In this document: piece by piece, positions 3,732-23,828 of the stretch
Layout of the letters: the number at the start of each line of letters is the position of its first letter
Position numbering within the stretch: the stretch's first letter is position 1
Virus record (IMG/VR): IMGVR_UViG_2744054962_000001
Strand: one strand, 5' to 3'
Origin: a virus
Lineage: Duplodnaviria > Heunggongvirae > Uroviricota > Caudoviricetes
Length of the DNA: 64,000 bases
Program-made: the position numbers and the translations under genes
The notes under the pieces: generated by a model
What the model was told of the DNA's origin: nothing
Database searches by the model: none
The model's input: only the letters and a program-made list of their open reading frames with translations

Positions 3732-4067
3732 ATGGAAAGACAAACGTTTAATTGGTATCCAGATTACGAATCTGAAAAAAGCGTAAAACCGAATGTAACG
3801 GTACTTAATTTTGGTGATGACTACGAGCAGCGACAGGCTCAAGGTCTTAATCGTATTAAAGAAGAATGGTCGTTAACCTTTACCAGATCATACAACGAAA
3901 TTAATGCAATCGATGACTTCCTGACTGAGCGAGCAGGCGTTGAGTCGTTCTATTGGGTTAATCCAAGAGGAAAACGGATTGTAGTTGTATGTGACAGTCA
4001 TACGGTCAAGCGATATCAGGGGTACTGTGTCTTAACTGCTACATTCAGACAAGTATTTGAGGCTTAA
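3732..4067 (+). CDS. minor tail protein (lambda gpM-like)
   Basis: 111 aa, position directly after tape measure and before gpL-like gene; size and synteny as in lambda. Confidence 0.55.
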   Translation: MERQTFNWYPDYESEKSVKPNVTVLNFGDDYEQRQAQGLNRIKEEWSLTFTRSYNEINAIDDFLTERAGVESFYWVNPRGKRIVVVCDSHTVKRYQGYCVLTATFRQVFEA

Positions 4068-4116: not shown

Positions 4117-4848
4117 ATGCTAGCGCCTACTTATTTCAAGGATGAAACAATGGGAATTAAAGCTGATATTCAGAGCTTATCTCCCTCTGCACTCATTGAG
4201 TTGTTCGTACTGGATATGTCGAACACAACTTCAGGGGGGAAGTTATTCTTCCACGCCGGAACAAACGAACTGATGCAACCGGTCGTCTGGCAAGGAGTGA
4301 CATACGAGCCGTGGCCAATCAAAGCATCAGGCTTTGACAAAACTGGCCAGGGAACGTTGCCACGTCCAAAAATTCAGGTATCGAACTTTGCCGGAACCGT
4401 CTCTGCGGAAGTTCAGGCGAACGACGATCTTGTTGGCTGCCGCATTATTCGCAAGATGACGCTGGCTCGCTTCCTCGATGCCGTTAATTTTAAAGACGGC
4501 AACCCAACAGCAGATCCAAACCAACATTTCCCGGATGAAATGTGGTTTATCGAACAGAAAACTCTCGAAACTCATCAGGTTGTCGAGTTTGAATTGTCCA
4601 GTGTGTTCGATTTGATGGGGGTGCAACTGCCGTATCGTCAGATCATTAAAAACACCTGCCCGTGGAAATACCGAGGGCCAGAATGCGGCTATACCGGTCC
4701 ATATTTCGACAAAAATAACCAGCAGACGTCTATGTCTGGTGCTGATTACTGCACAAAACGTTATGACGCCTGTAATGCGCGTCGGAATTATTTTGCCAAC
4801 GGAGTGATCCATTTTGGCGGGTTTATTGGAGCTACGCGATATGGGTAA
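4117..4848 (+). CDS. minor tail protein L-like
   Basis: 243 aa; C-terminal Cys cluster CPWKYRGPECGY...YCTKRYDAC as in lambda gpL; synteny. Confidence 0.65.
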   Translation: MLAPTYFKDETMGIKADIQSLSPSALIELFVLDMSNTTSGGKLFFHAGTNELMQPVVWQGVTYEPWPIKASGFDKTGQGTLPRPKIQVSNFAGTVSAEVQANDDLVGCRIIRKMTLARFLDAVNFKDGNPTADPNQHFPDEMWFIEQKTLETHQVVEFELSSVFDLMGVQLPYRQIIKNTCPWKYRGPECGYTGPYFDKNNQQTSMSGADYCTKRYDACNARRNYFANGVIHFGGFIGATRYG

Positions 4849-14334: not shown

Positions 14335-14670
14335 ATGGAGGAAAATATGTCGAACGAGATGGCGGGCGTAACAACAGAGCAAGTTGAGCGCATTGCCGCG
14401 ATCGTTGCTCGGGAGGTTGTCGGCAAATTAGGTAAAGAGCTACGTGAAGAAATTGGCCAGGAGGTCAACGATCAGCTGAAAACCTACTTTGGTGATATGA
14501 CCCCGGCGCAACATAGTATTCAACACTCCAACCTGGACAAACTCCTTAACCGGTTAGATTCCATCTCCAGTGGGTTCTTTGGCGGCATTGTTTCTAAAAT
14601 AACGTCGTTCATTATTACCGCACTGCTTTTGGGGTTAGCCGCGTATGGCGTGAAAAATGGACTGCAATAA
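14335..14670 (+). CDS. putative holin / lysis membrane protein
   Basis: 111 aa, single C-terminal TM (ITSFIITALLLGLAAYGV), first gene of lysis cassette; assignment is positional. Confidence 0.35.
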   Translation: MEENMSNEMAGVTTEQVERIAAIVAREVVGKLGKELREEIGQEVNDQLKTYFGDMTPAQHSIQHSNLDKLLNRLDSISSGFFGGIVSKITSFIITALLLGLAAYGVKNGLQ

Positions 14671-15376
14671 CAGGAGATCAAGGATGAAGACTCCGAGAGG
14701 CATTCGTAACAATAACCCCGGTAATCTTGATAAAGGATCGCCGTGGCAAGGTCTGGTTGCTAATCCAGACGAACCCCGCTTTTGCACGTTTAAAGACCCT
14801 GTTTGGGGGATTCGTGCGCTGGCGGTGACTCTAATTACCTACCACGACAAACGTCGCGCAAAAGACGGCTCAAGTATCGATACCATTCGTGAAGTTATTG
14901 AACGCTGGGCACCGCCGAACGAAAATAACACTGACGCCTATATTAATGAGGTGTCCAAAGCAGTTGGTGTAACCGCAGACATGATTATCGATCTGCATGA
15001 TTACGACATCCTTCGACCTTTAGTTGAGGCAATCATTCGCCACGAGAATGGCCGAGGCCCGCTAAAAACGCTGAACACCTGGTATGCGGCAGAAGTTATT
15101 GAGGAAGGTCTGCGTCGAGCTGGCGTCGTTAAGCCGGTGAAAACGGTGAAGGCTGTTCCTGTAACGAAAGAAACCGCAGGCGCAACTGTTACAGCAGGTA
15201 TTGGTCTGGCGCAGCTTGCCGATGTTATGCCGCAGATTTCCGCTGCTATGGATAAAGCACAAGGTCATATCTCTAGCGGGGATACAGTACGCATCATCTT
15301 CGGTATTGCCACTATTGTTGTGGCAGGATTCATTGCCTGGTCGCAGGTAAGAAAACACCAGAAAGGGATGGTCTAA
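14657..15376 (+). CDS. putative endolysin / peptidoglycan hydrolase with C-terminal membrane anchor
   Basis: 239 aa, N-terminal GIRNNNPGNL motif region, C-terminal TM (IIFGIATIVVAGFIAWSQ); directly followed by spanin genes. Confidence 0.4.
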   Translation: MDCNNRRSRMKTPRGIRNNNPGNLDKGSPWQGLVANPDEPRFCTFKDPVWGIRALAVTLITYHDKRRAKDGSSIDTIREVIERWAPPNENNTDAYINEVSKAVGVTADMIIDLHDYDILRPLVEAIIRHENGRGPLKTLNTWYAAEVIEEGLRRAGVVKPVKTVKAVPVTKETAGATVTAGIGLAQLADVMPQISAAMDKAQGHISSGDTVRIIFGIATIVVAGFIAWSQVRKHQKGMV

Positions 15377-15377
15377 T

Positions 15378-15629
15378 ATGCTAGGCAGCCTGATGACAAA
15401 GCTAAAAGTTGCTTTGATTACGCTGGCTGCCGTTCTTTTCGTTCTTGTCGGCGCTTACACGATGGGCGGGAATGCGGCGCGACGAGCAATGGAAGAGAAG
15501 GCAAAACAGGAAGACAGAAAACGACTTCAAAACACAGTGAAAGTGGTGAATGAGACGAGCAGTAAAATACGTCAGAAAGATGCTTCTGCCGTTCATCGTG
15601 AGTTGTATGATAAGTGGGTGCGTCATTAA
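15378..15629 (+). CDS. i-spanin (Rz-like)
   Basis: 83 aa, N-terminal TM followed by charged coiled-coil; overlapped by an out-of-frame lipoprotein ORF. Confidence 0.55.
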   Translation: MLGSLMTKLKVALITLAAVLFVLVGAYTMGGNAARRAMEEKAKQEDRKRLQNTVKVVNETSSKIRQKDASAVHRELYDKWVRH

Positions 15630-15797: not shown

Positions 15798-16319
15798 TTA
15801 TTCTTCGAACAATTTTTCGATAGATTTTGTAGGATAGAACAAAGAACGCTCGTTGTTACCAACCAGCTGGATAAAGCCTAAACTTTTATAAAACGCCTTG
15901 GCTTTGTCATTTAACGCCTCAACGAAAAGTCCATGAATGCCTACAGCAAGAGATGCATTGTACACAACGCGCATTGCATGTGTTACAAGCATTGAGCCAA
16001 ATCCTTGACCTTGAAGGGACTTGTCCAAAGCCAGCCTACCCAAAGTAACACTTGGAACATTCCGATAAGGAACCTTCTTTTGTTTGCTTCTTGAAGGTAA
16101 GGACTCCTTTTCAAAACAACTACCTGACAAAGTGTAATATCCTAACACTTTTGGCCTTTCTTCTTGAGTGCAAAGCACATAAGCACGAAGAATTTTTCCC
16201 TCATGCTGCCTTTTTAAGTGGTTGGCTAAAAAGGCGTTTAGTGACTCTTCGCCGCAATCAAAACCGTTTAGATCATAATCTTTCTCTCCAGAGAAAATCT
16301 CTATCGTTGTATTGCTCAC
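15798..16319 (-). CDS. GNAT-family acetyltransferase toxin (TacT/KacT-like)
   Basis: 173 aa, GNAT motif A (QGQGFGSMLV) and paired with upstream DUF1778-like RHH antitoxin. Confidence 0.7.
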   Translation of the reverse strand: MSNTTIEIFSGEKDYDLNGFDCGEESLNAFLANHLKRQHEGKILRAYVLCTQEERPKVLGYYTLSGSCFEKESLPSRSKQKKVPYRNVPSVTLGRLALDKSLQGQGFGSMLVTHAMRVVYNASLAVGIHGLFVEALNDKAKAFYKSLGFIQLVGNNERSLFYPTKSIEKLFEE

Positions 16320-16326
16320 GAGTAAA

Positions 16327-16596
16327 CTACTCCATGCTTTTCAGACGATCAGCAGCTCGTTTCAGCTTGTCGTTCGGTGCCGGAGGATTGCTTATAGCGT
16401 CCATAACCAGATTCCAGGATTCTTCATTCAGAACTAGTCTACGGTGTTGCTCTATAACTTTCACGGCACGTTCAGATGCACTGCTAACCATAAACTGAGT
16501 AATGCTCTGGTTAGACATTGCGGCAGCTTCCTCGATGATGCTTTTATCGTCATCGGTTAATCTCAAATCGATGCGCTGCTTTTTTAGTGCTGACAT
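16327..16596 (-). CDS. RHH antitoxin (DUF1778/TacA-like)
   Basis: MSALKKQRIDLRLTDDDKSIIEEAAA... pattern; AGGAGG 7 nt upstream of this Met; ORF track extends to 16635 but internal start preferred. Confidence 0.7.
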   Translation of the reverse strand: MSALKKQRIDLRLTDDDKSIIEEAAAMSNQSITQFMVSSASERAVKVIEQHRRLVLNEESWNLVMDAISNPPAPNDKLKRAADRLKSME

Positions 16597-16914
16597 GTAT
16601 TCCTCCTGATGGCCGTGATGTAGGAAGGCCATCAATCTCCTCTGTTCAAACTGAGTTTTCGACTCAAAAATTACTTTAAAAGGCTATAGCCCATTACGTG
16701 TGCATTATCAAATTGTGTACGGCATATCACCGTACTTGTAATATAGAGGTCATTGTTACTTTTTTCAACAGACAAATACAAGCTATGATTGCCAATTGTT
16801 AATCACAACCTACCATTTAACCTTTACACCGCAGCCGTAGGCATTTAGGCTATATCACATATAAGAAAACAAGTTGTTTCAGACGATAATTATATACGCA
16901 AAGGGAACTCTCCA

Positions 16915-17583
16915 ATGACCAAGATCTTTGTGGTTGGCGGCACAAAGGGCGGGCCTGGCAAATCCACCGTTGCCCAGCAAATTGCCGTTTGCCTGAAAGT
17001 CAAAAAGAAGAAGAAGGTTTATATTACCGATATAGATATTCAGCGCACGACAACGAGCTGGTGTGAAGACCGTCGACAGAACGAAGACCTTGAGCTGATT
17101 CCTTTTGCATACGTTCAGGATGACATCATTAAGCACCTAAAATCGCTTCAGGGTAGAGCTGAGTTTGTAGTGGTAGATGCTGGTGGCTTCGACTCCGAAA
17201 TTCAGCGACAAGCGATGCTGATGGCTGACGTTATCATTATCCCGCTGCGTCCTAAGCGTCGTGATTTGAAATCTTTACGTGACATCGATCCTATTATCGA
17301 CAATGTTCGCAATGTAAACGATAAAGTGAAGGTCCGCGCGGTCATGAACCAGTGCCCGGCTTTGCCATCACAAGTGTCTCGCATTCTGGCGGCTAAAGAG
17401 ATTGTTGAGACGTTTGGAATCGAGTCTGCGCCAGTCAATCTATATAACCGCAACGTCTATGATGATGCGGAAGAGTCTGGTCGTTCTATCTTTGAAATGA
17501 CCGGTAGCGAGCGCGACAAAAAGGCGGAAGCCGAGTTTGAAGAATTTGTAGATTATCTGTTGAGTCTGGAGGAAGAAGAATAA
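16915..17583 (+). CDS. parA: ParA-type partition ATPase
   Basis: deviant Walker A GGTKGGPGKST; 222 aa; followed by small RHH protein. Confidence 0.8.
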   Translation: MTKIFVVGGTKGGPGKSTVAQQIAVCLKVKKKKKVYITDIDIQRTTTSWCEDRRQNEDLELIPFAYVQDDIIKHLKSLQGRAEFVVVDAGGFDSEIQRQAMLMADVIIIPLRPKRRDLKSLRDIDPIIDNVRNVNDKVKVRAVMNQCPALPSQVSRILAAKEIVETFGIESAPVNLYNRNVYDDAEESGRSIFEMTGSERDKKAEAEFEEFVDYLLSLEEEE

Positions 17584-17942
17584 TGTCCATGAAAATGGGT
17601 GACCTAGCAAAGCGCAAAGAGCCTGATGCACCGGCTAAGAACACAACTCCTTTGCGCCAACCAGTCAGACCACAAGGACGCCCGACTCGTGGCAAAGAGA
17701 AAATTAAAAGCCGCACTATGTCACTGGAAGACGAATACTTCGAGCTTCTGGAAATGATGAAGTTTATCCCTCGTTTCGAGAAGTTCACCCGCTCTGATGT
17801 GATTCGTGCTGCTATTTTCCATCTGGCAGAGAAGTCACCGCAGGAAATCGAGGACATCGTAAAGCTGAACGAGGCGATCACAGCTGCCGATGTCACGATG
17901 CGTACCGATGAAATTAAACGCGAGTTGATGAAGAAAGGTTAA
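17583..17942 (+). CDS. small RHH partition protein (ParG/omega-like)
   Basis: 119 aa, basic disordered N-terminus then predicted strand-helix-helix; translationally coupled to parA. Confidence 0.45.
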   Translation: MSMKMGDLAKRKEPDAPAKNTTPLRQPVRPQGRPTRGKEKIKSRTMSLEDEYFELLEMMKFIPRFEKFTRSDVIRAAIFHLAEKSPQEIEDIVKLNEAITAADVTMRTDEIKRELMKKG

Positions 17943-17945
17943 TAA

Positions 17946-17973
17946 TGTGGGCTGTCTAGCCCACATTATTTTA
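17946..17973 (+). terminator. rho-independent terminator after partition operon
   Basis: ATGTGGGCT-gtct-AGCCCACAT followed by TATTTT. Confidence 0.6.
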
Positions 17974-17984
17974 ATTAAAGTGGA

Positions 17985-18746
17985 GTGATAATTATGCATT
18001 CGTTAGTATTTGCATTTAAAAACATACTCAAGAATGTTATAAACATACTAGGGATGTTAAATATTTTTTTGTCTGTGAGGGTGAGGAGAAAAGATATAAA
18101 AGATAAATTAAAGGAACTTAACAAAGAAAAAGAACAATTAAAAAGCGAAGAAATTATTATTGATTTATACAAGAAAAAACTCGCATCTAGCAAGGGGAAA
18201 GCTAATGATAAAATCAAAGGAAAAATAATTCACTATATTATTGCTAGAGAGTTGGGGAATGATCCTGATAATGAAGATTTGCGACATAATCTTTTTACAA
18301 AGATAAAAGAATCAGAAGAACAGGTTGAAGTTCTGGTTCATCAAAGAGAAGTAAGTGAGCAGGCGAACAAAAAAGAAACGGTTGTCAATTTGTTTTTATT
18401 GTATGAAAAAAATAAATTGTTTAAAGCTAAGGGGTTGGCTGTGTTTCTTATAGTTATAAACTTAATTATAGTTGCGACTCTCGATCTTCCAGCTTGGTCA
18501 TTGATTATAAGTTTTTTTATTCTCTCTTTGATTATGTTGAAAGATCAGATACTTACTATTCGTGTCTCTAAAGGATATTTTGGCACAAGTGCGTATGAAG
18601 CGGTTCAATTGCTTAAATTCATCAGAGAAAATTCAGACAAATTTGACTCAGATGATAATGACGGTAGCCCACGACGGATATTGAATCCGAAGGGAACAAC
18701 AAAAAAATCAGACAACCTATTCGATAAAGGGTGGCAAAATGTTTGA
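17985..18746 (+). CDS. hypothetical membrane protein, AT-rich accessory gene
   Basis: 253 aa; N-terminal and central hydrophobic segments separated by Lys/Glu-rich coiled-coil; markedly lower GC than flanking genes. Confidence 0.4.
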   Translation: MIIMHSLVFAFKNILKNVINILGMLNIFLSVRVRRKDIKDKLKELNKEKEQLKSEEIIIDLYKKKLASSKGKANDKIKGKIIHYIIARELGNDPDNEDLRHNLFTKIKESEEQVEVLVHQREVSEQANKKETVVNLFLLYEKNKLFKAKGLAVFLIVINLIIVATLDLPAWSLIISFFILSLIMLKDQILTIRVSKGYFGTSAYEAVQLLKFIRENSDKFDSDDNDGSPRRILNPKGTTKKSDNLFDKGWQNV

Positions 18747-19161
18747 CCTTGACGCCATCACTAAGTTCTTAAATCAGTGTTTTGATCTACTTTTGCTCAA
18801 GCAGCCTTTAAGAACTGTTTTCGGAATACTGATTGGTTTCATTATTTTTGTTTTTGTTTACACGTTTAGGTTTGCGATAGCTCAAGATTTTTATGAAATA
18901 GATGGTGTGCATTACGCTGCATGTTTCGTCATCGGTGTTTTAGTTGTTCACACAAGAACATTTTTTGACGTTATCAAGGGCACCGCAGTTGATGAAGAAA
19001 TAGATAGTATGATCAGAGTTATTACGAAGCAGCCACACCTATCTAACCATCAAAAAAACATAATGATTGCTGAAATACTTCAAAAAGAAATTGCAGCCAT
19101 AAGTCAAAAGAGATTGGATAAAGTTGCACAAGAAATAACGGAGAAAAAGACAACTGATTAA
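18739..19161 (+). CDS. hypothetical membrane protein, AT-rich accessory gene
   Basis: 140 aa; two hydrophobic segments; start overlaps stop of upstream ORF (coupled). Confidence 0.4.
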   Translation: MFDLDAITKFLNQCFDLLLLKQPLRTVFGILIGFIIFVFVYTFRFAIAQDFYEIDGVHYAACFVIGVLVVHTRTFFDVIKGTAVDEEIDSMIRVITKQPHLSNHQKNIMIAEILQKEIAAISQKRLDKVAQEITEKKTTD

Positions 19162-19332
19162 TTTAATTACCTGTTTCTGTATATAAATAATAAGTAACTT
19201 ATTAAATATATATACGGAAGCAGGTCTTTTAAAAGACACCCACCAGAACAACTCCCTTCCGTTTCCACTTCCAAAAACTGCCACCAGTCGCTATCATCCG
19301 CTCATTGTGATAAGTAAGTAACTACCTACCAG

Positions 19333-20082
19333 GTGAGCCACATGAGCCAAATCTTTTTCGATACCATCGACAACAACCAGTACGACTTCATGACAGAGTG
19401 GAATACCGCTGTTATGGACAAGTGGGTTGCTGAAAACATTGGTTTGTCGCGCTGTAAAGACGAGGCTGAACTCTTCGAGACGAAGTGGTTTGATTATCGC
19501 GACATGCATCCTCTCATGGCCACCTGTCTTTTTACGGAGGCATACAAACGTCAGTACTCAAATATCATGCTGACGCACGGTCGCGAACACTTTGAAACAG
19601 CTCCGTTCACCACCGGGTTAAAACGTCTGCCTTATCAGGAGTTGTCGACTGCCAACAAAACGTCGCTATGGAAAGCACGCCAGTTTGCGGATCGCTATTG
19701 CTGCTCATACGACTACTTTATCTCCACCGTTCTTTCCGCAGCTGCACGACGGCTGTGGGACAAGCTGCCGCGCCCACAGCATTTGTGGCAGCCAGAACTG
19801 ATTGAGATATTTGAAGAGAAATTAGCCAGACGCGCAACAACCCGTCTGGATGACTCTCTGGTTAGCTTTAAGCATATGGGAGACATGCAGTTCAACCCGA
19901 TTCAGGAAAGCTATTTTGAGTGGATTCTGGAGCGTTTGCGCACCATCCCTCGCAGTAAGCGCATACGCGCAATTTTCTCCGCTATCTGGCTAATGGAAAT
20001 CGTTCCAGAGCGCCTTATTTCCGCCCACTTTCCAGAAGAACTGGAAGAAGCACGGCGGTTTATTGATCCCCTATCTAATTAA
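19333..20082 (+). CDS. hypothetical protein upstream of helicase (possible helicase loader/replication accessory)
   Basis: 249 aa, no recognisable motif; function guessed from position only. Confidence 0.3.
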   Translation: MSHMSQIFFDTIDNNQYDFMTEWNTAVMDKWVAENIGLSRCKDEAELFETKWFDYRDMHPLMATCLFTEAYKRQYSNIMLTHGREHFETAPFTTGLKRLPYQELSTANKTSLWKARQFADRYCCSYDYFISTVLSAAARRLWDKLPRPQHLWQPELIEIFEEKLARRATTRLDDSLVSFKHMGDMQFNPIQESYFEWILERLRTIPRSKRIRAIFSAIWLMEIVPERLISAHFPEELEEARRFIDPLSN

Positions 20083-21466: not shown

Positions 21467-21547
21467 AAAATAAGCGTGGAGAACACCTCCACGCTTGATT
21501 CATTGGTGAAACAACTTTTCTTTTGCCAAACCACAAAAGAAAAACAC

Positions 21548-22729
21548 ATGAGCCTTTATGTTATATCAACATTTAGGTTGGTCACAATATTGCCTGTTAA
21601 AAGTGGAATTATCGTGAGCGAGCTGAAAGAGCTAATTACCGAATTAGATTTTGAACAATGGTTGGATACTGAAGGTATCGTTTATCGACGTGGAGGCGTG
21701 AGTACTCGCGGTCGTGAAGTGAATATCAAGGAGTGTCCGGTATGCGGCAGCTCCAACTGGAAGGTATATTTCAATCTGACCAGTGGCGTCGGTAAATGCT
21801 TCGCTGGTGATCATCCCGAAGAGATTCAGTTCAATAAGCTGGTCTTCCTCAAGCACTACAGCGGTAAATCACGACGACAGTTCGAGGAATATGTGCAGAA
21901 CGCTCTTCTTTCCCAGGGGTGGGCACCAAAGAAAGAAGAGATAGTGCTTGCAAGCACAGTCGAGTTAGAGGGACCAGTTGCACTCCCTCGTCATTACGAT
22001 CTTCCTATAGATGGCCATCTTCCAGACTATCTGGTTGAACGAAATATATCGCCTGAAATGGCAAAGTATTTTGACCTACGATACTGCGTCGAAGGCAAGC
22101 ACGCTTATGTAGATCCGTATACAGATCAGGTTAAAGGACAGATTTTCGATATGCGAATACTGATACCGGTTTACGATCTGGATGGGGTAATGAAGACATT
22201 TCAAGGACGAGACATTACCGGTACAGCAGAACGCCGCTACCTCTTCCCTATGCAGCTGCCGGCGTCGGGTAAGTTTCTCTACAACGGCCACAACGCAGTC
22301 GGGAAACAAACAGTCGTTGTGTGTGAAGGGGCATTTGACGTAATGGGCGTGAAGCGAGCCATCTTCGACGAAAAGACGCTGAGGGATTATGTAGAGCCAA
22401 TTGGCACGTTCGGGATGCACTTGTCCGGAAATATGAATGAGGACGCTGAAGATCAGTTGGGCGCGTTCCTGACGCTCAAGGCGCGTGGATTACGCAACGT
22501 CATCATGATGTGGGATAGCGAGAAGCAAGCGATCCGCAACACCATGTCGGCGGCCAAACGCCTCACCAGCATCGGACTAAATGTCAAAGTGGCCTGTCTG
22601 GGCGAAGAAGGTCTCGACCCCGGCGACGCGACGCCAGAGCAGATCCTCAAAGCCTATTATCGTGCCAAGCCTTACTCCAAACAGCTGGAGTTAAAATGCA
22701 AAGTGCTCGGTATCAAGTCACTCGTGTAG
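21548..22729 (+). CDS. DNA primase (zinc-finger plus TOPRIM)
   Basis: CPVCGSSNW...CFAGDH zinc-binding motif, TOPRIM-like VVVCEGAFDVMG; start chosen at Met preceded by the conserved AAAGAAAAACACATG motif (track ORF starts 21476). Confidence 0.6.
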   Translation: MSLYVISTFRLVTILPVKSGIIVSELKELITELDFEQWLDTEGIVYRRGGVSTRGREVNIKECPVCGSSNWKVYFNLTSGVGKCFAGDHPEEIQFNKLVFLKHYSGKSRRQFEEYVQNALLSQGWAPKKEEIVLASTVELEGPVALPRHYDLPIDGHLPDYLVERNISPEMAKYFDLRYCVEGKHAYVDPYTDQVKGQIFDMRILIPVYDLDGVMKTFQGRDITGTAERRYLFPMQLPASGKFLYNGHNAVGKQTVVVCEGAFDVMGVKRAIFDEKTLRDYVEPIGTFGMHLSGNMNEDAEDQLGAFLTLKARGLRNVIMMWDSEKQAIRNTMSAAKRLTSIGLNVKVACLGEEGLDPGDATPEQILKAYYRAKPYSKQLELKCKVLGIKSLV

Positions 22730-22730
22730 T

Positions 22731-23828
22731 TTAAGTTGTGGGAGACAGACGGTTCAGGACAAACGCTGCGATATTATTTAGTGCTATATTTAGCAAACTT
22801 GCATCATATGTTTGGTCGTTATCCTTAGGTTTAAAATTGCTGATACTGACTGTCTCACTGTGCTCATTTTCATAGAAACGTTTACTGCTTGAATCTAGGC
22901 GTTTGAGGACGTAAATTTGCCCAAATTCAATCCACTCACCTTCACCATTGAGTCCGCTCCCTGTTTTGACTGAGATGAAGTACTTTGCCAGCTTGGTTGT
23001 AATGCAGTCTTCATTTTTTTCTATGCAAACCTTAATGCCGGCGGCTTTCAAACTACGATAAATGCTGTTTGGATATGCCCCACTATAGATTTCGCTGCTT
23101 TCAATGATAATGACGTCGTATTCTTCCTTTGGCTCAATAGATAAAGCTTCAGGCTCCAAATCATCCTTGTGAAAAATAAATCCTAAAAGACGCTCAAGTT
23201 CATCTGTTAATTTGAACATGGGGTTCGCTTGGATCTCGCCAGCCCTGTCTTCGTAGACGAGCCCCGAGGTTATGAGCTTATTTAGCGATCTCAGAGCCAT
23301 TCCACTTTTTTGTGATGTGAGGCTAACTTGGGCTAATACAGTTGATTTATAGCCTTTTATTGGCGAGCTTGTTGTGATGTAAAGTTTGCGCGCATATTCA
23401 ATATCAAAGCAGGTTAACCCACTCAGTATGTGGATAAAAAATAGTTTTTCATCGTCGTTAAGGCTGCTGCGGGCTAGGCTTACCGTCAAGCGAATGTAGT
23501 ATTCTGTTTTCTTGTCTTCATCATCAAGCACGAGCTTTTTGACTAACGCCGAAAAGTGTTCTCTTGAGATATCGACCTCATCGTCGCAAATTTCACCAAT
23601 GCCCATAATGTAACGGTTGAATCGATCACGACAAGTCGTCGCATTTATCTCTGAGAACAACGTGAACATTTTTTCCGCTGCCTCAATATGAGGTCCAACA
23701 AGCGGTATAGATTTGGCAAACGCCAAACCAGTTTCTTTCAATACCTTCCTGTGTTGCATCACGTTTTTGGACAACGTTGTCATAGACCTAAGCCTTGTGT
23801 GTTTAACGTATGAGTTAAGTGAAATCAT
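22731..23828 (-). CDS. hypothetical protein, reverse-strand AT-rich orphan
   Basis: 365 aa ORF convergent with primase gene; no recognisable catalytic motif by eye. Confidence 0.45.
   Translation of the reverse strand: MISLNSYVKHTRLRSMTTLSKNVMQHRKVLKETGLAFAKSIPLVGPHIEAAEKMFTLFSEINATTCRDRFNRYIMGIGEICDDEVDISREHFSALVKKLVLDDEDKKTEYYIRLTVSLARSSLNDDEKLFFIHILSGLTCFDIEYARKLYITTSSPIKGYKSTVLAQVSLTSQKSGMALRSLNKLITSGLVYEDRAGEIQANPMFKLTDELERLLGFIFHKDDLEPEALSIEPKEEYDVIIIESSEIYSGAYPNSIYRSLKAAGIKVCIEKNEDCITTKLAKYFISVKTGSGLNGEGEWIEFGQIYVLKRLDSSSKRFYENEHSETVSISNFKPKDNDQTYDASLLNIALNNIAAFVLNRLSPTT

What the first reader, a model, noticed from the sequence alone, without database searches (positions are those of the whole stretch)
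17985..19161. AT-rich two-gene membrane-protein cassette inserted between the partition locus and the replication genes
Two translationally coupled ORFs (253 aa and 140 aa) with multiple hydrophobic segments and Lys/Glu-rich coiled-coil linkers sit directly after the parA/RHH terminator. Their base composition is visibly more AT-rich than the surrounding genes, which suggests horizontal acquisition. They carry none of the motifs seen in the neighbouring maintenance or replication genes. Small membrane-protein pairs in this kind of position are typical of superinfection-exclusion or abortive-infection modules, but nothing here matches a family I can name.
Basis: partly seen in the sequence, partly recalled or inferred. 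Interest (0 to 1): 0.7.

Follow-up and report, generated by a model that had tools for sequence, protein, structure and literature searches.

The report
Uncharacterised membrane gene pair in defence hotspot
Two small, tightly coupled membrane-protein genes of unknown function sit in a swappable slot of an E. coli phage-plasmid; sister plasmids carry known or candidate anti-phage genes in that slot, so the pair is a good but untested candidate for a new phage-defence or exclusion system.

Summary
Gene A (17994-18746, 250 aa from the ATG) and gene B (18739-19161, 140 aa) overlap by 8 nt. Each has a two-helix membrane hairpin. GC is 0.32/0.35 against 0.47-0.49 in the flanks.

The window is an SSU5-type phage-plasmid. 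The cassette (17945-19165) fills a slot between the parB stop codon and a conserved palindrome. Among 263 complete E. coli genomes with this backbone, 7 match A-B. Other cargoes match in more genomes:
- a PD-T4-3-like GIY-YIG nuclease: 107
- a 225-aa unknown: 41
- a 352-aa unknown: 37
- a DUF2971/PDC-S31 gene: 21

A-B is a real, mobile, always-paired module. B followed A in all of about 52 loci, including SSU5 itself, P2-like and lambdoid prophages, islands beside Tiamat or AbiU, and a Chloroflexota genome. It evolves about 5-10 times faster than the backbone (dN/dS 0.2-0.3 against 0.02-0.06). One homologue of A is fused to EAD1, an adaptor domain of bacterial conflict-system effectors.

Neither protein matches Pfam, NCBIfam or PDB. 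PADLOC gave only marginal hits and PHROGs only unknown-function families. Structure models were poor.

Best reading (about 0.5): a prophage-expressed abortive-infection or exclusion module with A as membrane effector. No function was tested.

The parts
17945..19165 (+). The exchangeable cassette, delimited by loss of homology to sister phage-plasmids that carry other cargo
   Evidence: In blastn against Cyrano (L002) and pU_B2_3 (L003), homology ends at 17944/17945 and resumes at 19166-19170.
17941..17970 (+). Cassette-specific hairpin overlapping the parB stop codon and followed by a U-rich stretch. Probably a leaky terminator or attenuator between parAB and gene A.
   Evidence: 13-bp stem, 4-nt loop, -18.5 kcal/mol, z = -3.8. 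The consensus scan flagged it only on the minus strand. Each alternative allele has a different hairpin at this position, and SSU5 has none.
17981..17984 (+). GGAG ribosome-binding site of gene A
   Evidence: Read directly from the sequence, 9 nt before the ATG at 17994.
17994..18746 (+). Gene A, 250 aa: amphipathic N-terminal helix, K/E-rich helical linker, conserved juxtamembrane helix, 2-TM hairpin, conserved cytoplasmic motif and tail
   Evidence: ORF; start supported by homologues and GenBank annotation; phrog_22270, unknown function; no Pfam, NCBIfam or PDB match and only marginal PADLOC hits; 362 representative homologues at E<=1e-3; dN/dS 0.22-0.33.
18369..18656 (+). Conserved core module of the A family (residues about 126-221): KKETVVNLFLL..K..KAK, a TM hairpin (147-184, periplasmic loop LPAW), then RVSKGYFGTSAYEAVQLLKFIRENSDKFDSDD
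   Evidence: This is the only part shared by distant homologues (profile positions about 115-240). R190, G194, G197 and E202 are invariant in 51 sequences. Hydropathy and flanking positive charges suggest N-in/C-in topology. It is the best-modelled part of the AF2 model (pLDDT 73-79).
18739..19161 (+). Gene B, 140 aa: N-terminal helix, 2-TM hairpin (about 26-76), conserved GTAxDEE motif and a C-terminal helix. It is the obligate partner of A.
   Evidence: ORF with 8-nt overlap; phrog_17322, unknown function; P23, R25, G29, G66, G81, E86 and K106 are invariant; it follows A in every locus examined.
19169..19225 (.). Backbone AT-rich palindrome (CCTGyTTCTGTATATA...TATATACrGAAGCAGG) that forms the right border of the slot. 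It may be a bidirectional terminator or a regulatory site of the replication module.
   Evidence: Inverted repeats. It is conserved in all alleles and lineages, including SSU5 and Klebsiella types, with a paired change in both arms in pMS-37c.
16915..17942 (+). parA (16915-17583) and the 119-aa parB/ParG-like gene (17583-17942). This is the backbone operon at the left border and the probable source of read-through transcription.
   Evidence: ParA matches Pfam MipZ, AAA_31 and CbiA. The 119-aa protein matches phrog_5111 only. Both are 82-100% identical across relatives.

Best explanation
The two genes are an accessory, horizontally exchanged module that I call A-B. It is one of at least six alternative cargoes of a variable slot between the parAB partition operon and the replication genes of SSU5-type phage-plasmids. 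Because sister plasmids carry known or candidate anti-phage genes in that slot, I read it as a defence hotspot.

Proposed working, with each step marked:
1. The pair is transcribed in the plasmid-prophage state, probably by read-through from parAB past a leaky hairpin (inferred).
2. The two proteins are made in fixed proportion through the 8-nt overlap (the overlap is shown; coupling is inferred).
3. Both insert in the inner membrane as N-in/C-in helical hairpins (inferred from hydropathy and flanking charges).
4. The conserved C-terminal module of A is the effector. When another phage or mobile element infects, it compromises the membrane or blocks DNA entry (inferred from the EAD1 fusion and genomic context).
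5. B is its obligate partner, acting as inhibitor, sensor or co-subunit (the pairing is shown; the role is inferred).

The outcome would be abortive infection or superinfection exclusion that protects the phage-plasmid's host population.
For: Slot and alleles:
- Breakpoints are exact.
- Matches among 5426 complete E. coli genomes, all on plasmids: backbone 263 genomes, A-B 7, PD-T4-3-like GIY-YIG gene 107 (PADLOC E 1.6e-23), 225-aa unknown 41, 352-aa unknown 37, DUF2971/PDC-S31 gene 21 (PADLOC E 3e-41). Slot position was confirmed only in the example records.
- SSU5 itself carries A-B plus PDC-S31 in the slot.
- PD-T4-3 is experimentally active against T-even phages (PMC12409345) and has been reported in SSU5-group phage-plasmids (bioRxiv 10.1101/2025.09.12.675607).

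The module is self-contained and mobile:
- B follows A in all of about 52 loci, including a Herpetosiphonaceae genome (B profile 41.5 bits, E 6e-15).
- It occurs in a P2-like prophage between gpS and the baseplate genes, after gpD in another P2-like element, and next to a lambdoid integrase.
- It occurs beside AbiU, Psu and Delta in a P4-like remnant near smpB, about 4 kb from a Tiamat TmtA gene, and alone among Pantoea metabolic genes.

Evolution:
- GC is 0.30-0.39 in every host, whatever the host GC.
- dN/dS is 0.22-0.33 against 0.02-0.06 for the backbone.
- A is 28-76% identical where ParB is 63-97% and DnaB 80-93%. SSU5 and pMS-37c backbones are about equally distant from the window, yet their A proteins are 32% and 73% identical. 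This points to swapping of diverged types.

Effector hint:
- P0069 is EAD1 (34.2 bits, cut-off 24.2) fused to the A module. EAD1 'primarily recruit[s] other effectors' in NTPase conflict systems (PMC7159879).

Base rate and phenotype:
- 6 of 8 unknown-function loci in P4 defence hotspots protected against phages (PMC13586616).
- Curing an SSU5-like plasmid from K. pneumoniae raised phage burst and plasmid uptake, by an unknown mechanism (PMC8969562).
Against: - No experiment bears on A-B itself.
- There is no homology to any known defence, exclusion, holin or toxin family.
- The structure models are poor (pLDDT 56 and 61) and Foldseek found nothing, so nothing supports pore formation directly.
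- The EAD1 link rests on one sequence among 51 scanned.
- The genomic-association evidence is a handful of loci, not an enrichment statistic. One stand-alone copy sits among ordinary metabolic genes.
- No convincing own promoter was found between the hairpin and the ATG.
- Position next to parAB and a KacAT toxin-antitoxin pair fits a plasmid-stability role equally well.
- It is not known whether the cured Klebsiella plasmid carries A-B.
Confidence: 0.5

Rival explanations
1. Addiction or toxin-antitoxin-like stability module. A is a membrane toxin and B its neutralising partner. Loss of the plasmid kills or arrests segregants, adding to parAB and KacAT in plasmid maintenance.
For: - The pair sits directly after parAB and 1.3 kb from a KacT/KacA pair.
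- It has a two-gene overlapping architecture in strict 1:1 pairing.
- It is AT-rich and mobile among plasmids, prophages and islands, as toxin-antitoxin pairs are.
- Small membrane toxins are well known (own knowledge: Hok, TisB, GhoT).
Against: - Both partners are stable-looking integral membrane proteins of similar type, and neither is a labile DNA-binding antitoxin or an RNA. Rfam found nothing.
- The slot's other alleles are single nuclease-type or DUF2971 defence candidates, not stability genes.
- The pair also occurs on chromosomes where addiction has no obvious target.
- This reading overlaps the main one, because many toxin-antitoxin pairs act as abortive-infection systems.
Confidence: 0.2
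2. A membrane function unrelated to conflict between genetic elements. Examples are lysogenic conversion of envelope properties, stress or transport modulation, or fine-tuning of lysis timing for the phage's own cycle.
For: - The proteins are small helical membrane proteins without enzymatic motifs.
- In a P2-like phage the pair lies just downstream of the late morphogenesis gene S.
- One copy is embedded among transport and metabolic genes in Pantoea.
Against: - No match to PHROG or Pfam holin, antiholin or spanin families.
- The plasmid has its own lysis cassette at about 14335-15629 that is conserved in relatives lacking A-B.
- The patchy distribution, fast evolution, EAD1 fusion and defence-gene neighbours are not expected for a housekeeping envelope role.
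Confidence: 0.15
3. An integral part of the plasmid's partition or replication machinery, for example a membrane tether for the partition complex or replisome.
For: It sits between parAB and the replication genes. In SSU5 gene A starts 2 nt after the parB stop, so it is co-transcribed there.
Against: - About 90% of plasmids with the same ParB lack any detectable A homologue (74 of 770).
- In E. coli, unrelated genes on either strand occupy the slot.
- The pair also occurs in integrated prophages and chromosomes without parAB.
Confidence: 0.03
4. Spurious ORFs in an AT-rich spacer, not real genes.
For: There is no database annotation beyond 'hypothetical protein'.
Against: - Both frames are conserved down to 22-28% identity, with invariant residues.
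- dN/dS is 0.22-0.33.
- The family has 362 representatives at 50% clustering.
- A ribosome-binding site and a coupled start are present.
Confidence: 0.01

Closest known systems
Small 2-TM/4-TM membrane effectors of bacterial conflict systems (SLATT domains; CBASS, Pycsar and retron TM effectors; EAD1-linked effectors of Kaur et al. 2020)
   Same: The A family pairs a conserved 2-TM hairpin with a short conserved cytoplasmic segment. It has variable N-terminal parts (extra TM helices, coiled coil, or an EAD1 adaptor in P0069). It sits in mobile and defence contexts.
   Different: - No match to any Pfam SLATT model or PADLOC effector model.
- No cyclase, NTPase or other signal-generating gene accompanies it here.
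- The constant partner is a second 2-TM protein.
Prophage-encoded membrane exclusion or abortive-infection pairs (lambda RexA/RexB, T4 Imm/Sp, P22 SieA/SieB; own knowledge)
   Same: - Small membrane proteins.
- Encoded by temperate elements at accessory positions.
- Plausibly expressed in the lysogen.
- Two-gene organisation.
   Different: No sequence similarity: only unknown-function PHROGs match. In RexAB only RexB is membrane-embedded, whereas here both proteins are hairpin membrane proteins.
PD-T4-3 (GIY-YIG) and PDC-S31 (DUF2971), the other occupants of the same slot
   Same: They occupy the identical position between the parB stop codon and the palindrome in sister phage-plasmids. Each brings its own hairpin, and the PDC-S31 allele is also AT-rich (GC 0.36).
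   Different: They are unrelated single soluble proteins (nuclease, DUF2971). A-B is a two-gene membrane module with no enzymatic domain.
Morons of temperate phages (Juhala/Hendrix concept; own knowledge), for example the P2 orf30 position between S and V
   Same: Deviant base composition, presence/absence between close relatives, flanking hairpin or palindrome, and occurrence in a P2-like phage between gpS and the baseplate genes.
   Different: An independent promoter was not demonstrated. In SSU5 the pair abuts parB and looks operon-embedded.
Membrane-toxin toxin-antitoxin pairs (GhoT/GhoS, Hok/Sok; own knowledge)
   Same: A small hydrophobic protein encoded on plasmids or prophages next to stability genes, in a strictly paired arrangement.
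   Different: The partner is another membrane protein, not an RNA or a soluble antitoxin. No homology was found.

Membership tests
SLATT / known TM effector families of defence systems | Significant match to the Pfam SLATT models or to PADLOC 2TM/4TM effector models | tested here: not met
   Pfam gave no family for A and only sub-threshold hits for B. None of 51 family members matched a SLATT model. PADLOC gave only marginal hits (E 1e-3 to 1e-2), some to coiled-coil regions, and single-member hits to '2TM/4TM Effector' models at E 1e-3 to 5e-3.
EAD1-linked effector (Kaur et al. 2020) | The domain occurs fused to EAD1, with a cognate EAD1-bearing core component encoded nearby | tested here: inconclusive
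   One homologue (P0069) has EAD1 at residues 7-84 (34.2 bits against a cut-off of 24.2), N-terminal to the A module. Its genomic neighbourhood could not be recovered. The nearest genome hit (L035) is cut at the contig start. The window protein itself has no EAD1.
Known anti-phage defence systems (PADLOC-DB v2.0.0) | Significant match of either protein to a PADLOC model | tested here: not met
   The best hits were PDC-M02B at E 0.0012 and JetC at E 0.01, both short helical stretches.
Occupant of a defence hotspot (guilt by position) | Alternative alleles at the same, precisely bounded position in related elements include validated or candidate defence genes | tested here: met
   Common breakpoints. 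The PhiR41_1 allele matches PD-T4-3 at E 1.6e-23. The Cyrano allele and SSU5_037 match PDC-S31 at E 3e-41 and 2e-33.
Moron (independent accessory transcription unit in a temperate phage) | Deviant composition and presence/absence between close relatives | tested here: met
   GC3 is 0.30/0.32 against 0.50-0.57. The cassette matches in 7 of 263 E. coli genomes with the backbone.
Moron (independent accessory transcription unit in a temperate phage) | Own promoter upstream and own terminator downstream | tested here: inconclusive
   No sigma-70-like site lies between the hairpin and the ATG. Only 23 nt separate them. The downstream palindrome is backbone, not cassette.
Holin/antiholin or spanin lysis proteins | Match to Pfam or PHROG lysis families, and location in the lysis cassette | tested here: not met
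   Only the unknown-function families phrog_22270 and phrog_17322 match. The lysis cassette is a separate block upstream at about 14335-15629.
Type II-like toxin-antitoxin pair | Toxicity of one partner neutralised by the other, with an autoregulated operon | not testable with these tools
   Only the overlapping two-gene architecture is visible. There is no match to Pfam or NCBIfam toxin or antitoxin families.
A-B family itself (phrog_22270 + phrog_17322) | An A-type protein with the R-x3-G-x2-G-x4-E-A post-hairpin motif, immediately followed by a B-type 2-TM protein with P-x-R...G...G-T-x3-E | tested here: met
   PHROG E-values are 2.9e-115 and 7.8e-69. Invariant residues are listed. Pairing held in all loci.

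The most novel reading that the evidence does not exclude
A-B defines a previously unnamed family of two-component membrane systems that spans phyla. The C-terminal module of A would be a new kind of membrane-acting effector. That same module is recruited through EAD1 by NTPase-based conflict systems in multicellular bacteria. Temperate phages, phage-plasmids and satellites of enterobacteria would carry it, with its dedicated 2-TM partner B, as a stand-alone anti-phage or exclusion system with several diverged specificity types.
Probability: 0.3. Interest if true: 0.7.

Novelty: new variant of a known kind. Interest (0 to 1): 0.55.

Why it matters
SSU5-type phage-plasmids are common in clinical E. 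coli, Shigella, Salmonella and Klebsiella. If the slot between their partition and replication genes is a defence hotspot, they are carriers of exchangeable immunity. The slot also gives a ready list of candidates: A-B and the 225-aa and 352-aa unknowns.

A-B is the most tractable of these. It is 1.2 kb long, self-contained, strictly paired, conserved from enterobacteria to Chloroflexota, and has no annotated domain. Showing what it does would name two families that are currently 'hypothetical' (362 representative clusters for A). It could also add a new membrane effector type to the known defence repertoire. If it turns out to be a stability module instead, that still explains a recurrent gene pair on clinically relevant plasmids.

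Tried and rejected
- **Family scans:** Pfam, NCBIfam and PADLOC on both proteins, and Pfam, PADLOC and PDB on a 51-member alignment, gave nothing significant. PHROGs gave only unknown-function families.
- **Structure:** AlphaFold2 models were all-helical but low-confidence (pLDDT 56 with a 6-sequence alignment for A; 61 for B as a single sequence). Foldseek against PDB gave a best E of 1.2. I ran no further search on such models.
- **Are A and B paralogues?** They are collinear: helix, TM, TM, then 'KG..GTxxxE'. hhalign gave P = 0.04-0.085 and probability about 1%, so this is not established.
- **RNA elements:** the Rfam scan of 17500-19500 gave only a sub-threshold chance hit.
- **Own promoter:** none was convincing.
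- **Genome searches:** the scan of GTDB species genomes with the 14-sequence alignment confirmed no locus. Two alignments (51 and 9 sequences) were too diverse for pattern searches.
- **Wasted search:** one Pfam search went on the wrong candidates for the EAD1 fusion before P0069 was verified.
- **Literature:** searches for the PHROG ids and the SSU5 locus tags and accessions found no paper. None of the newly named P4-hotspot systems in PMC13586616 resembles a two-membrane-protein module.
- **Rejected:** a partition or replication role, because of the presence/absence pattern, and chance ORFs, because of conservation.
Full report
**1. What is in the sequence**

The two ORFs exist.
- Gene A can start at GTG 17985 (253 aa). 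The ATG at 17994 is the likelier start (250 aa). GGAG lies 9 nt upstream, GenBank annotates the identical gene in CP090273 from that ATG, and all homologues begin there.
- Gene B (18739-19161, 140 aa) begins inside the last codons of A (ATGTTTGA, 8-nt overlap).
- A has an amphipathic N-terminal helix and a Lys/Glu-rich helical stretch at residues 30-125 (22 K+R, 20 D+E). It has a strongly hydrophobic hairpin at about 147-184, flanked by basic residues on both sides.
- B has two hydrophobic helices (about 26-47 and 59-76) with an acidic loop between them. This suggests N-in/C-in hairpins for both proteins.
- GC is 0.315 (A) and 0.348 (B) against 0.47-0.49 for the five flanking backbone genes. 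GC3 is 0.30/0.32 against 0.50-0.57.
- A 13-bp hairpin (17941-17970, -18.5 kcal/mol, z = -3.8) overlaps the stop codon of the 119-aa parB-like gene.

**2. The element and the slot**

The window is an SSU5/pHCM2-type phage-plasmid of E. coli. Positions 17500-19500 are 100% identical to CP090273, AP023200 and AP023193. The gene order is holin, endolysin, Rz, KacAT, ParA, ParB-like, A, B, a 249-aa gene, DnaB, primase.

Homology to sister plasmids with other cargo stops at 17944/17945, right after the parB stop codon. It resumes at 19166-19170. The right border is a conserved AT-rich palindrome, CCTGyTTCTGTATATA...TATATACrGAAGCAGG. It is present in every allele and lineage, including SSU5 and the Klebsiella types, and pMS-37c has a paired change in both arms. 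Each cargo brings a different hairpin directly after the parB stop, and SSU5 has none.

**3. What else sits in the slot**

Matches among 5426 complete E. coli genomes, every one on a plasmid:

| Query | Genomes |
|---|---|
| parAB backbone | 263 |
| A-B | 7 |
| 255-aa minus-strand gene: PADLOC PD-T4-3 (E 1.6e-23), Pfam LEM-3_GIY-YIG | 107 |
| 225-aa unknown | 41 |
| 352-aa unknown | 37 |
| DUF2971 gene: PADLOC PDC-S31 (E 3e-41) | 21 |

I confirmed the slot position only in the example records, not in every match. SSU5 itself carries a diverged A-B pair plus a PDC-S31-like gene in the slot.

PD-T4-3 is an experimentally active defence gene against T-even phages (PMC12409345). It has been noted in SSU5-group phage-plasmids (bioRxiv 10.1101/2025.09.12.675607). 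I found no paper that describes this slot as a hotspot or mentions A or B.

**4. The A-B module elsewhere**

The word-indexed search found only a handful of close relatives, all on SSU5-like contigs of about 100 kb. tblastn found A-like genes in 74 PLSDB plasmids: Klebsiella 51, Escherichia 7, Enterobacter 6, Cronobacter 4, Citrobacter 4, Salmonella 2. By comparison, 770 plasmids encode the ParB-like protein. So roughly one in ten relatives carries the pair, spread patchily across genera.

The exhaustive profile search found 362 representatives at E<=1e-3 and 40 at E<=1e-10. They share only the C-terminal module:
- a juxtamembrane helix ([NK]ETVVNLFLL..K..KAK);
- the TM hairpin;
- the motif YRVxKGYFGxNxxEAxQLIKFIxxNxDxxD....GG..RKILNP, in which R190, G194, G197 and E202 are invariant.

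N-termini vary: two extra TM helices, a coiled coil, or soluble domains.

In every locus I could read (about 52; a few are the same contig from two collections), A is followed at once by a B homologue. The spacing runs from an 11-nt overlap to a 3-nt gap in the loci checked. This includes a Herpetosiphonaceae (Chloroflexota) genome bin, where the downstream ORF scores 41.5 bits (E 6e-15) against the B profile.

Outside SSU5-type elements the pair occurs in these settings:
- a P2-like prophage, between gpS and the baseplate genes;
- after gpD in another P2-like element;
- next to the integrase of a lambdoid prophage;
- a Pectobacterium P4-like remnant beside smpB, with AbiU (E 4e-152), Psu and Delta;
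- a Kluyvera island, about 4 kb from a Tiamat TmtA gene (E = 0), with IS1 and CbeA nearby;
- alone among metabolic genes in Pantoea.

It is AT-rich (GC 0.30-0.39) everywhere, even in hosts of GC 0.54-0.55.

**5. Evolutionary behaviour**

dN/dS is 0.22-0.33 for A and 0.27-0.32 for B, against 0.02-0.06 for ParA, ParB and the 249-aa gene in the same genome pairs. The genes are therefore under purifying selection, but their protein sequences change about 5-10 times faster than the backbone.

A is 28-76% identical and B 23-77% identical where ParB is 63-97% and DnaB 80-93%. SSU5 and pMS-37c backbones are about equally distant from the window, yet their A proteins are 32% and 73% identical. At least four diverged A-B types therefore circulate in the same slot independently of the backbone.

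One oddity remains. Synonymous divergence of A-B (0.47-0.67) is lower than that of the backbone (1.1-1.5) for the same pairs. The cause is either more recent exchange or constraint from the extreme AT bias. I could not tell which.

**6. Functional clues**

Neither protein matches Pfam, NCBIfam or PDB sequences, and PADLOC gave only marginal hits. The PHROG matches are to unknown-function families.

AlphaFold2 models are all-helical and low-confidence. The A core is the best part, at pLDDT 73-79. Foldseek found nothing.

One homologue, P0069, has an N-terminal EAD1 domain (34.2 bits, cut-off 24.2) fused to the A module. In Kaur et al. 2020, EAD1 is an adaptor that couples effector domains to NTPase-based conflict systems (PMC7159879). 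This is a single fusion, but it marks the A module as an effector-type domain.

A and B are collinear and share a 'KG..GTxxxE' segment after the hairpin. Profile comparison does not establish homology (P 0.04-0.085).

**7. Interpretation**

Shown:
- a real, strictly paired, mobile two-gene membrane module;
- one of several alternative cargoes of a precisely bounded slot, whose other occupants include a member of a validated defence family and a candidate one;
- fast protein-sequence evolution with type swapping;
- AT-rich composition everywhere.

Inferred:
- expression in the lysogen by read-through from parAB;
- inner-membrane hairpin topology;
- A as a membrane-acting effector, with B as its regulator or co-subunit;
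- abortive infection or superinfection exclusion as the outcome.

Background that supports the inference: 6 of 8 unknown loci in P4 defence hotspots were protective (PMC13586616). Curing an SSU5-like plasmid made K. pneumoniae more permissive to phage and plasmids (PMC8969562). It is not known whether that plasmid carries A-B.

I put the defence/exclusion reading at about 0.5. The rivals are:

| Reading | Confidence |
|---|---|
| Toxin-antitoxin-like stability role (overlaps the main reading) | 0.2 |
| Some other membrane function | 0.15 |
| Role in partition or replication | 0.03 |
| Chance ORFs | 0.01 |

**8. Novelty and verdict**

The module is not a member of any named family. By position and behaviour it resembles phage-borne defence or exclusion morons and small TM effectors, so I file it as a new variant of a known kind.

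Its interpretation is partly supported: horizontal, accessory status is shown, and a defence or exclusion function is plausible but untested. The cassette is an allele of an old variable slot rather than a unique insertion.

Interest is moderate to good. It is a compact, cross-phylum, unannotated gene pair with a clear experimental test, in a hotspot that also offers two further unknown candidates.

Noticed in passing
window 19169-19225 (and the conserved leader to about 19330): An AT-rich palindrome, CCTGyTTCTGTATATA...TATATACrGAAGCAGG, is conserved in all SSU5-type relatives whatever the slot cargo. pMS-37c has a paired change in both arms. It is followed by a highly conserved untranslated leader before the 249-aa gene. 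It could be a bidirectional terminator, an operator, or part of the replication origin.
   Followed up: partly
window 15798-16635 (minus strand), compared with L001:2119-3239, L008:1508-2664, L006:2318-3517, L009:1970-2491: There is a second variable slot between the Rz gene and parA. This window has a KacT/KacA (GNAT toxin/DUF1778) pair. CP090273, pMS-37c and SSU5 instead have a two-gene plus-strand pair (phrog_2594 + phrog_3307 in CP090273). Another relative has a 399-aa minus-strand gene, and pKPHS1 has an HHH_2 protein. CP090273 is 100% identical to the window across A-B but differs at this slot, so the two slots assort independently.
   Followed up: partly
window 22731-23828 (minus strand): A 365-aa ORF of unknown function (phrog_22938, GC 0.41) sits directly after the primase gene. 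Relatives have minus-strand ORFs of different lengths there (388 and 417 aa), or a plus-strand gene (CP090273). This may be a third variable slot.
   Followed up: no
L003:3504-4562 (minus strand) and L034:1982-2659 (minus strand), at the same slot as window 17945-19165: Two further slot alleles of unknown function (352 aa, phrog_22329; 225 aa) match in 37 and 41 complete E. coli genomes. The 352-aa allele has no Pfam, NCBIfam or PADLOC match, and the 225-aa allele has no Pfam or PADLOC match. By position they are defence candidates too.
   Followed up: partly
L035:3-955 (Herpetosiphonaceae MAG DASWTQ010000104.1): An A-module gene (cut by the contig end) and a B-like gene 3 nt downstream occur in a filamentous Chloroflexota genome. 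The pairing therefore predates, or has crossed, phylum boundaries. The closest protein to this A is the EAD1-fused P0069.
   Followed up: partly
window 17994-19161 compared with L004 and L006: Synonymous divergence of A and B (dS 0.47-0.67) is about half that of the adjacent backbone genes (1.1-1.5) in the same genome pairs, although amino-acid divergence is higher. The cause is either recent cassette exchange or strong compositional constraint on synonymous sites.
   Followed up: no
L009:3831-4597 (pKPHS1, K. pneumoniae HS11286): The A homologue is split into two ORFs (3831-4016 and 4163-4597) in this record, while B is intact. This is a possible frameshift, pseudogene or sequencing error in an old assembly.
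   Followed up: no
window 21476-22729: The mechanical primase ORF starts at a GTG and gives 417 aa. Related records annotate about 371-372 aa from a later start, so the upstream 45 codons are probably not translated.
   Followed up: no
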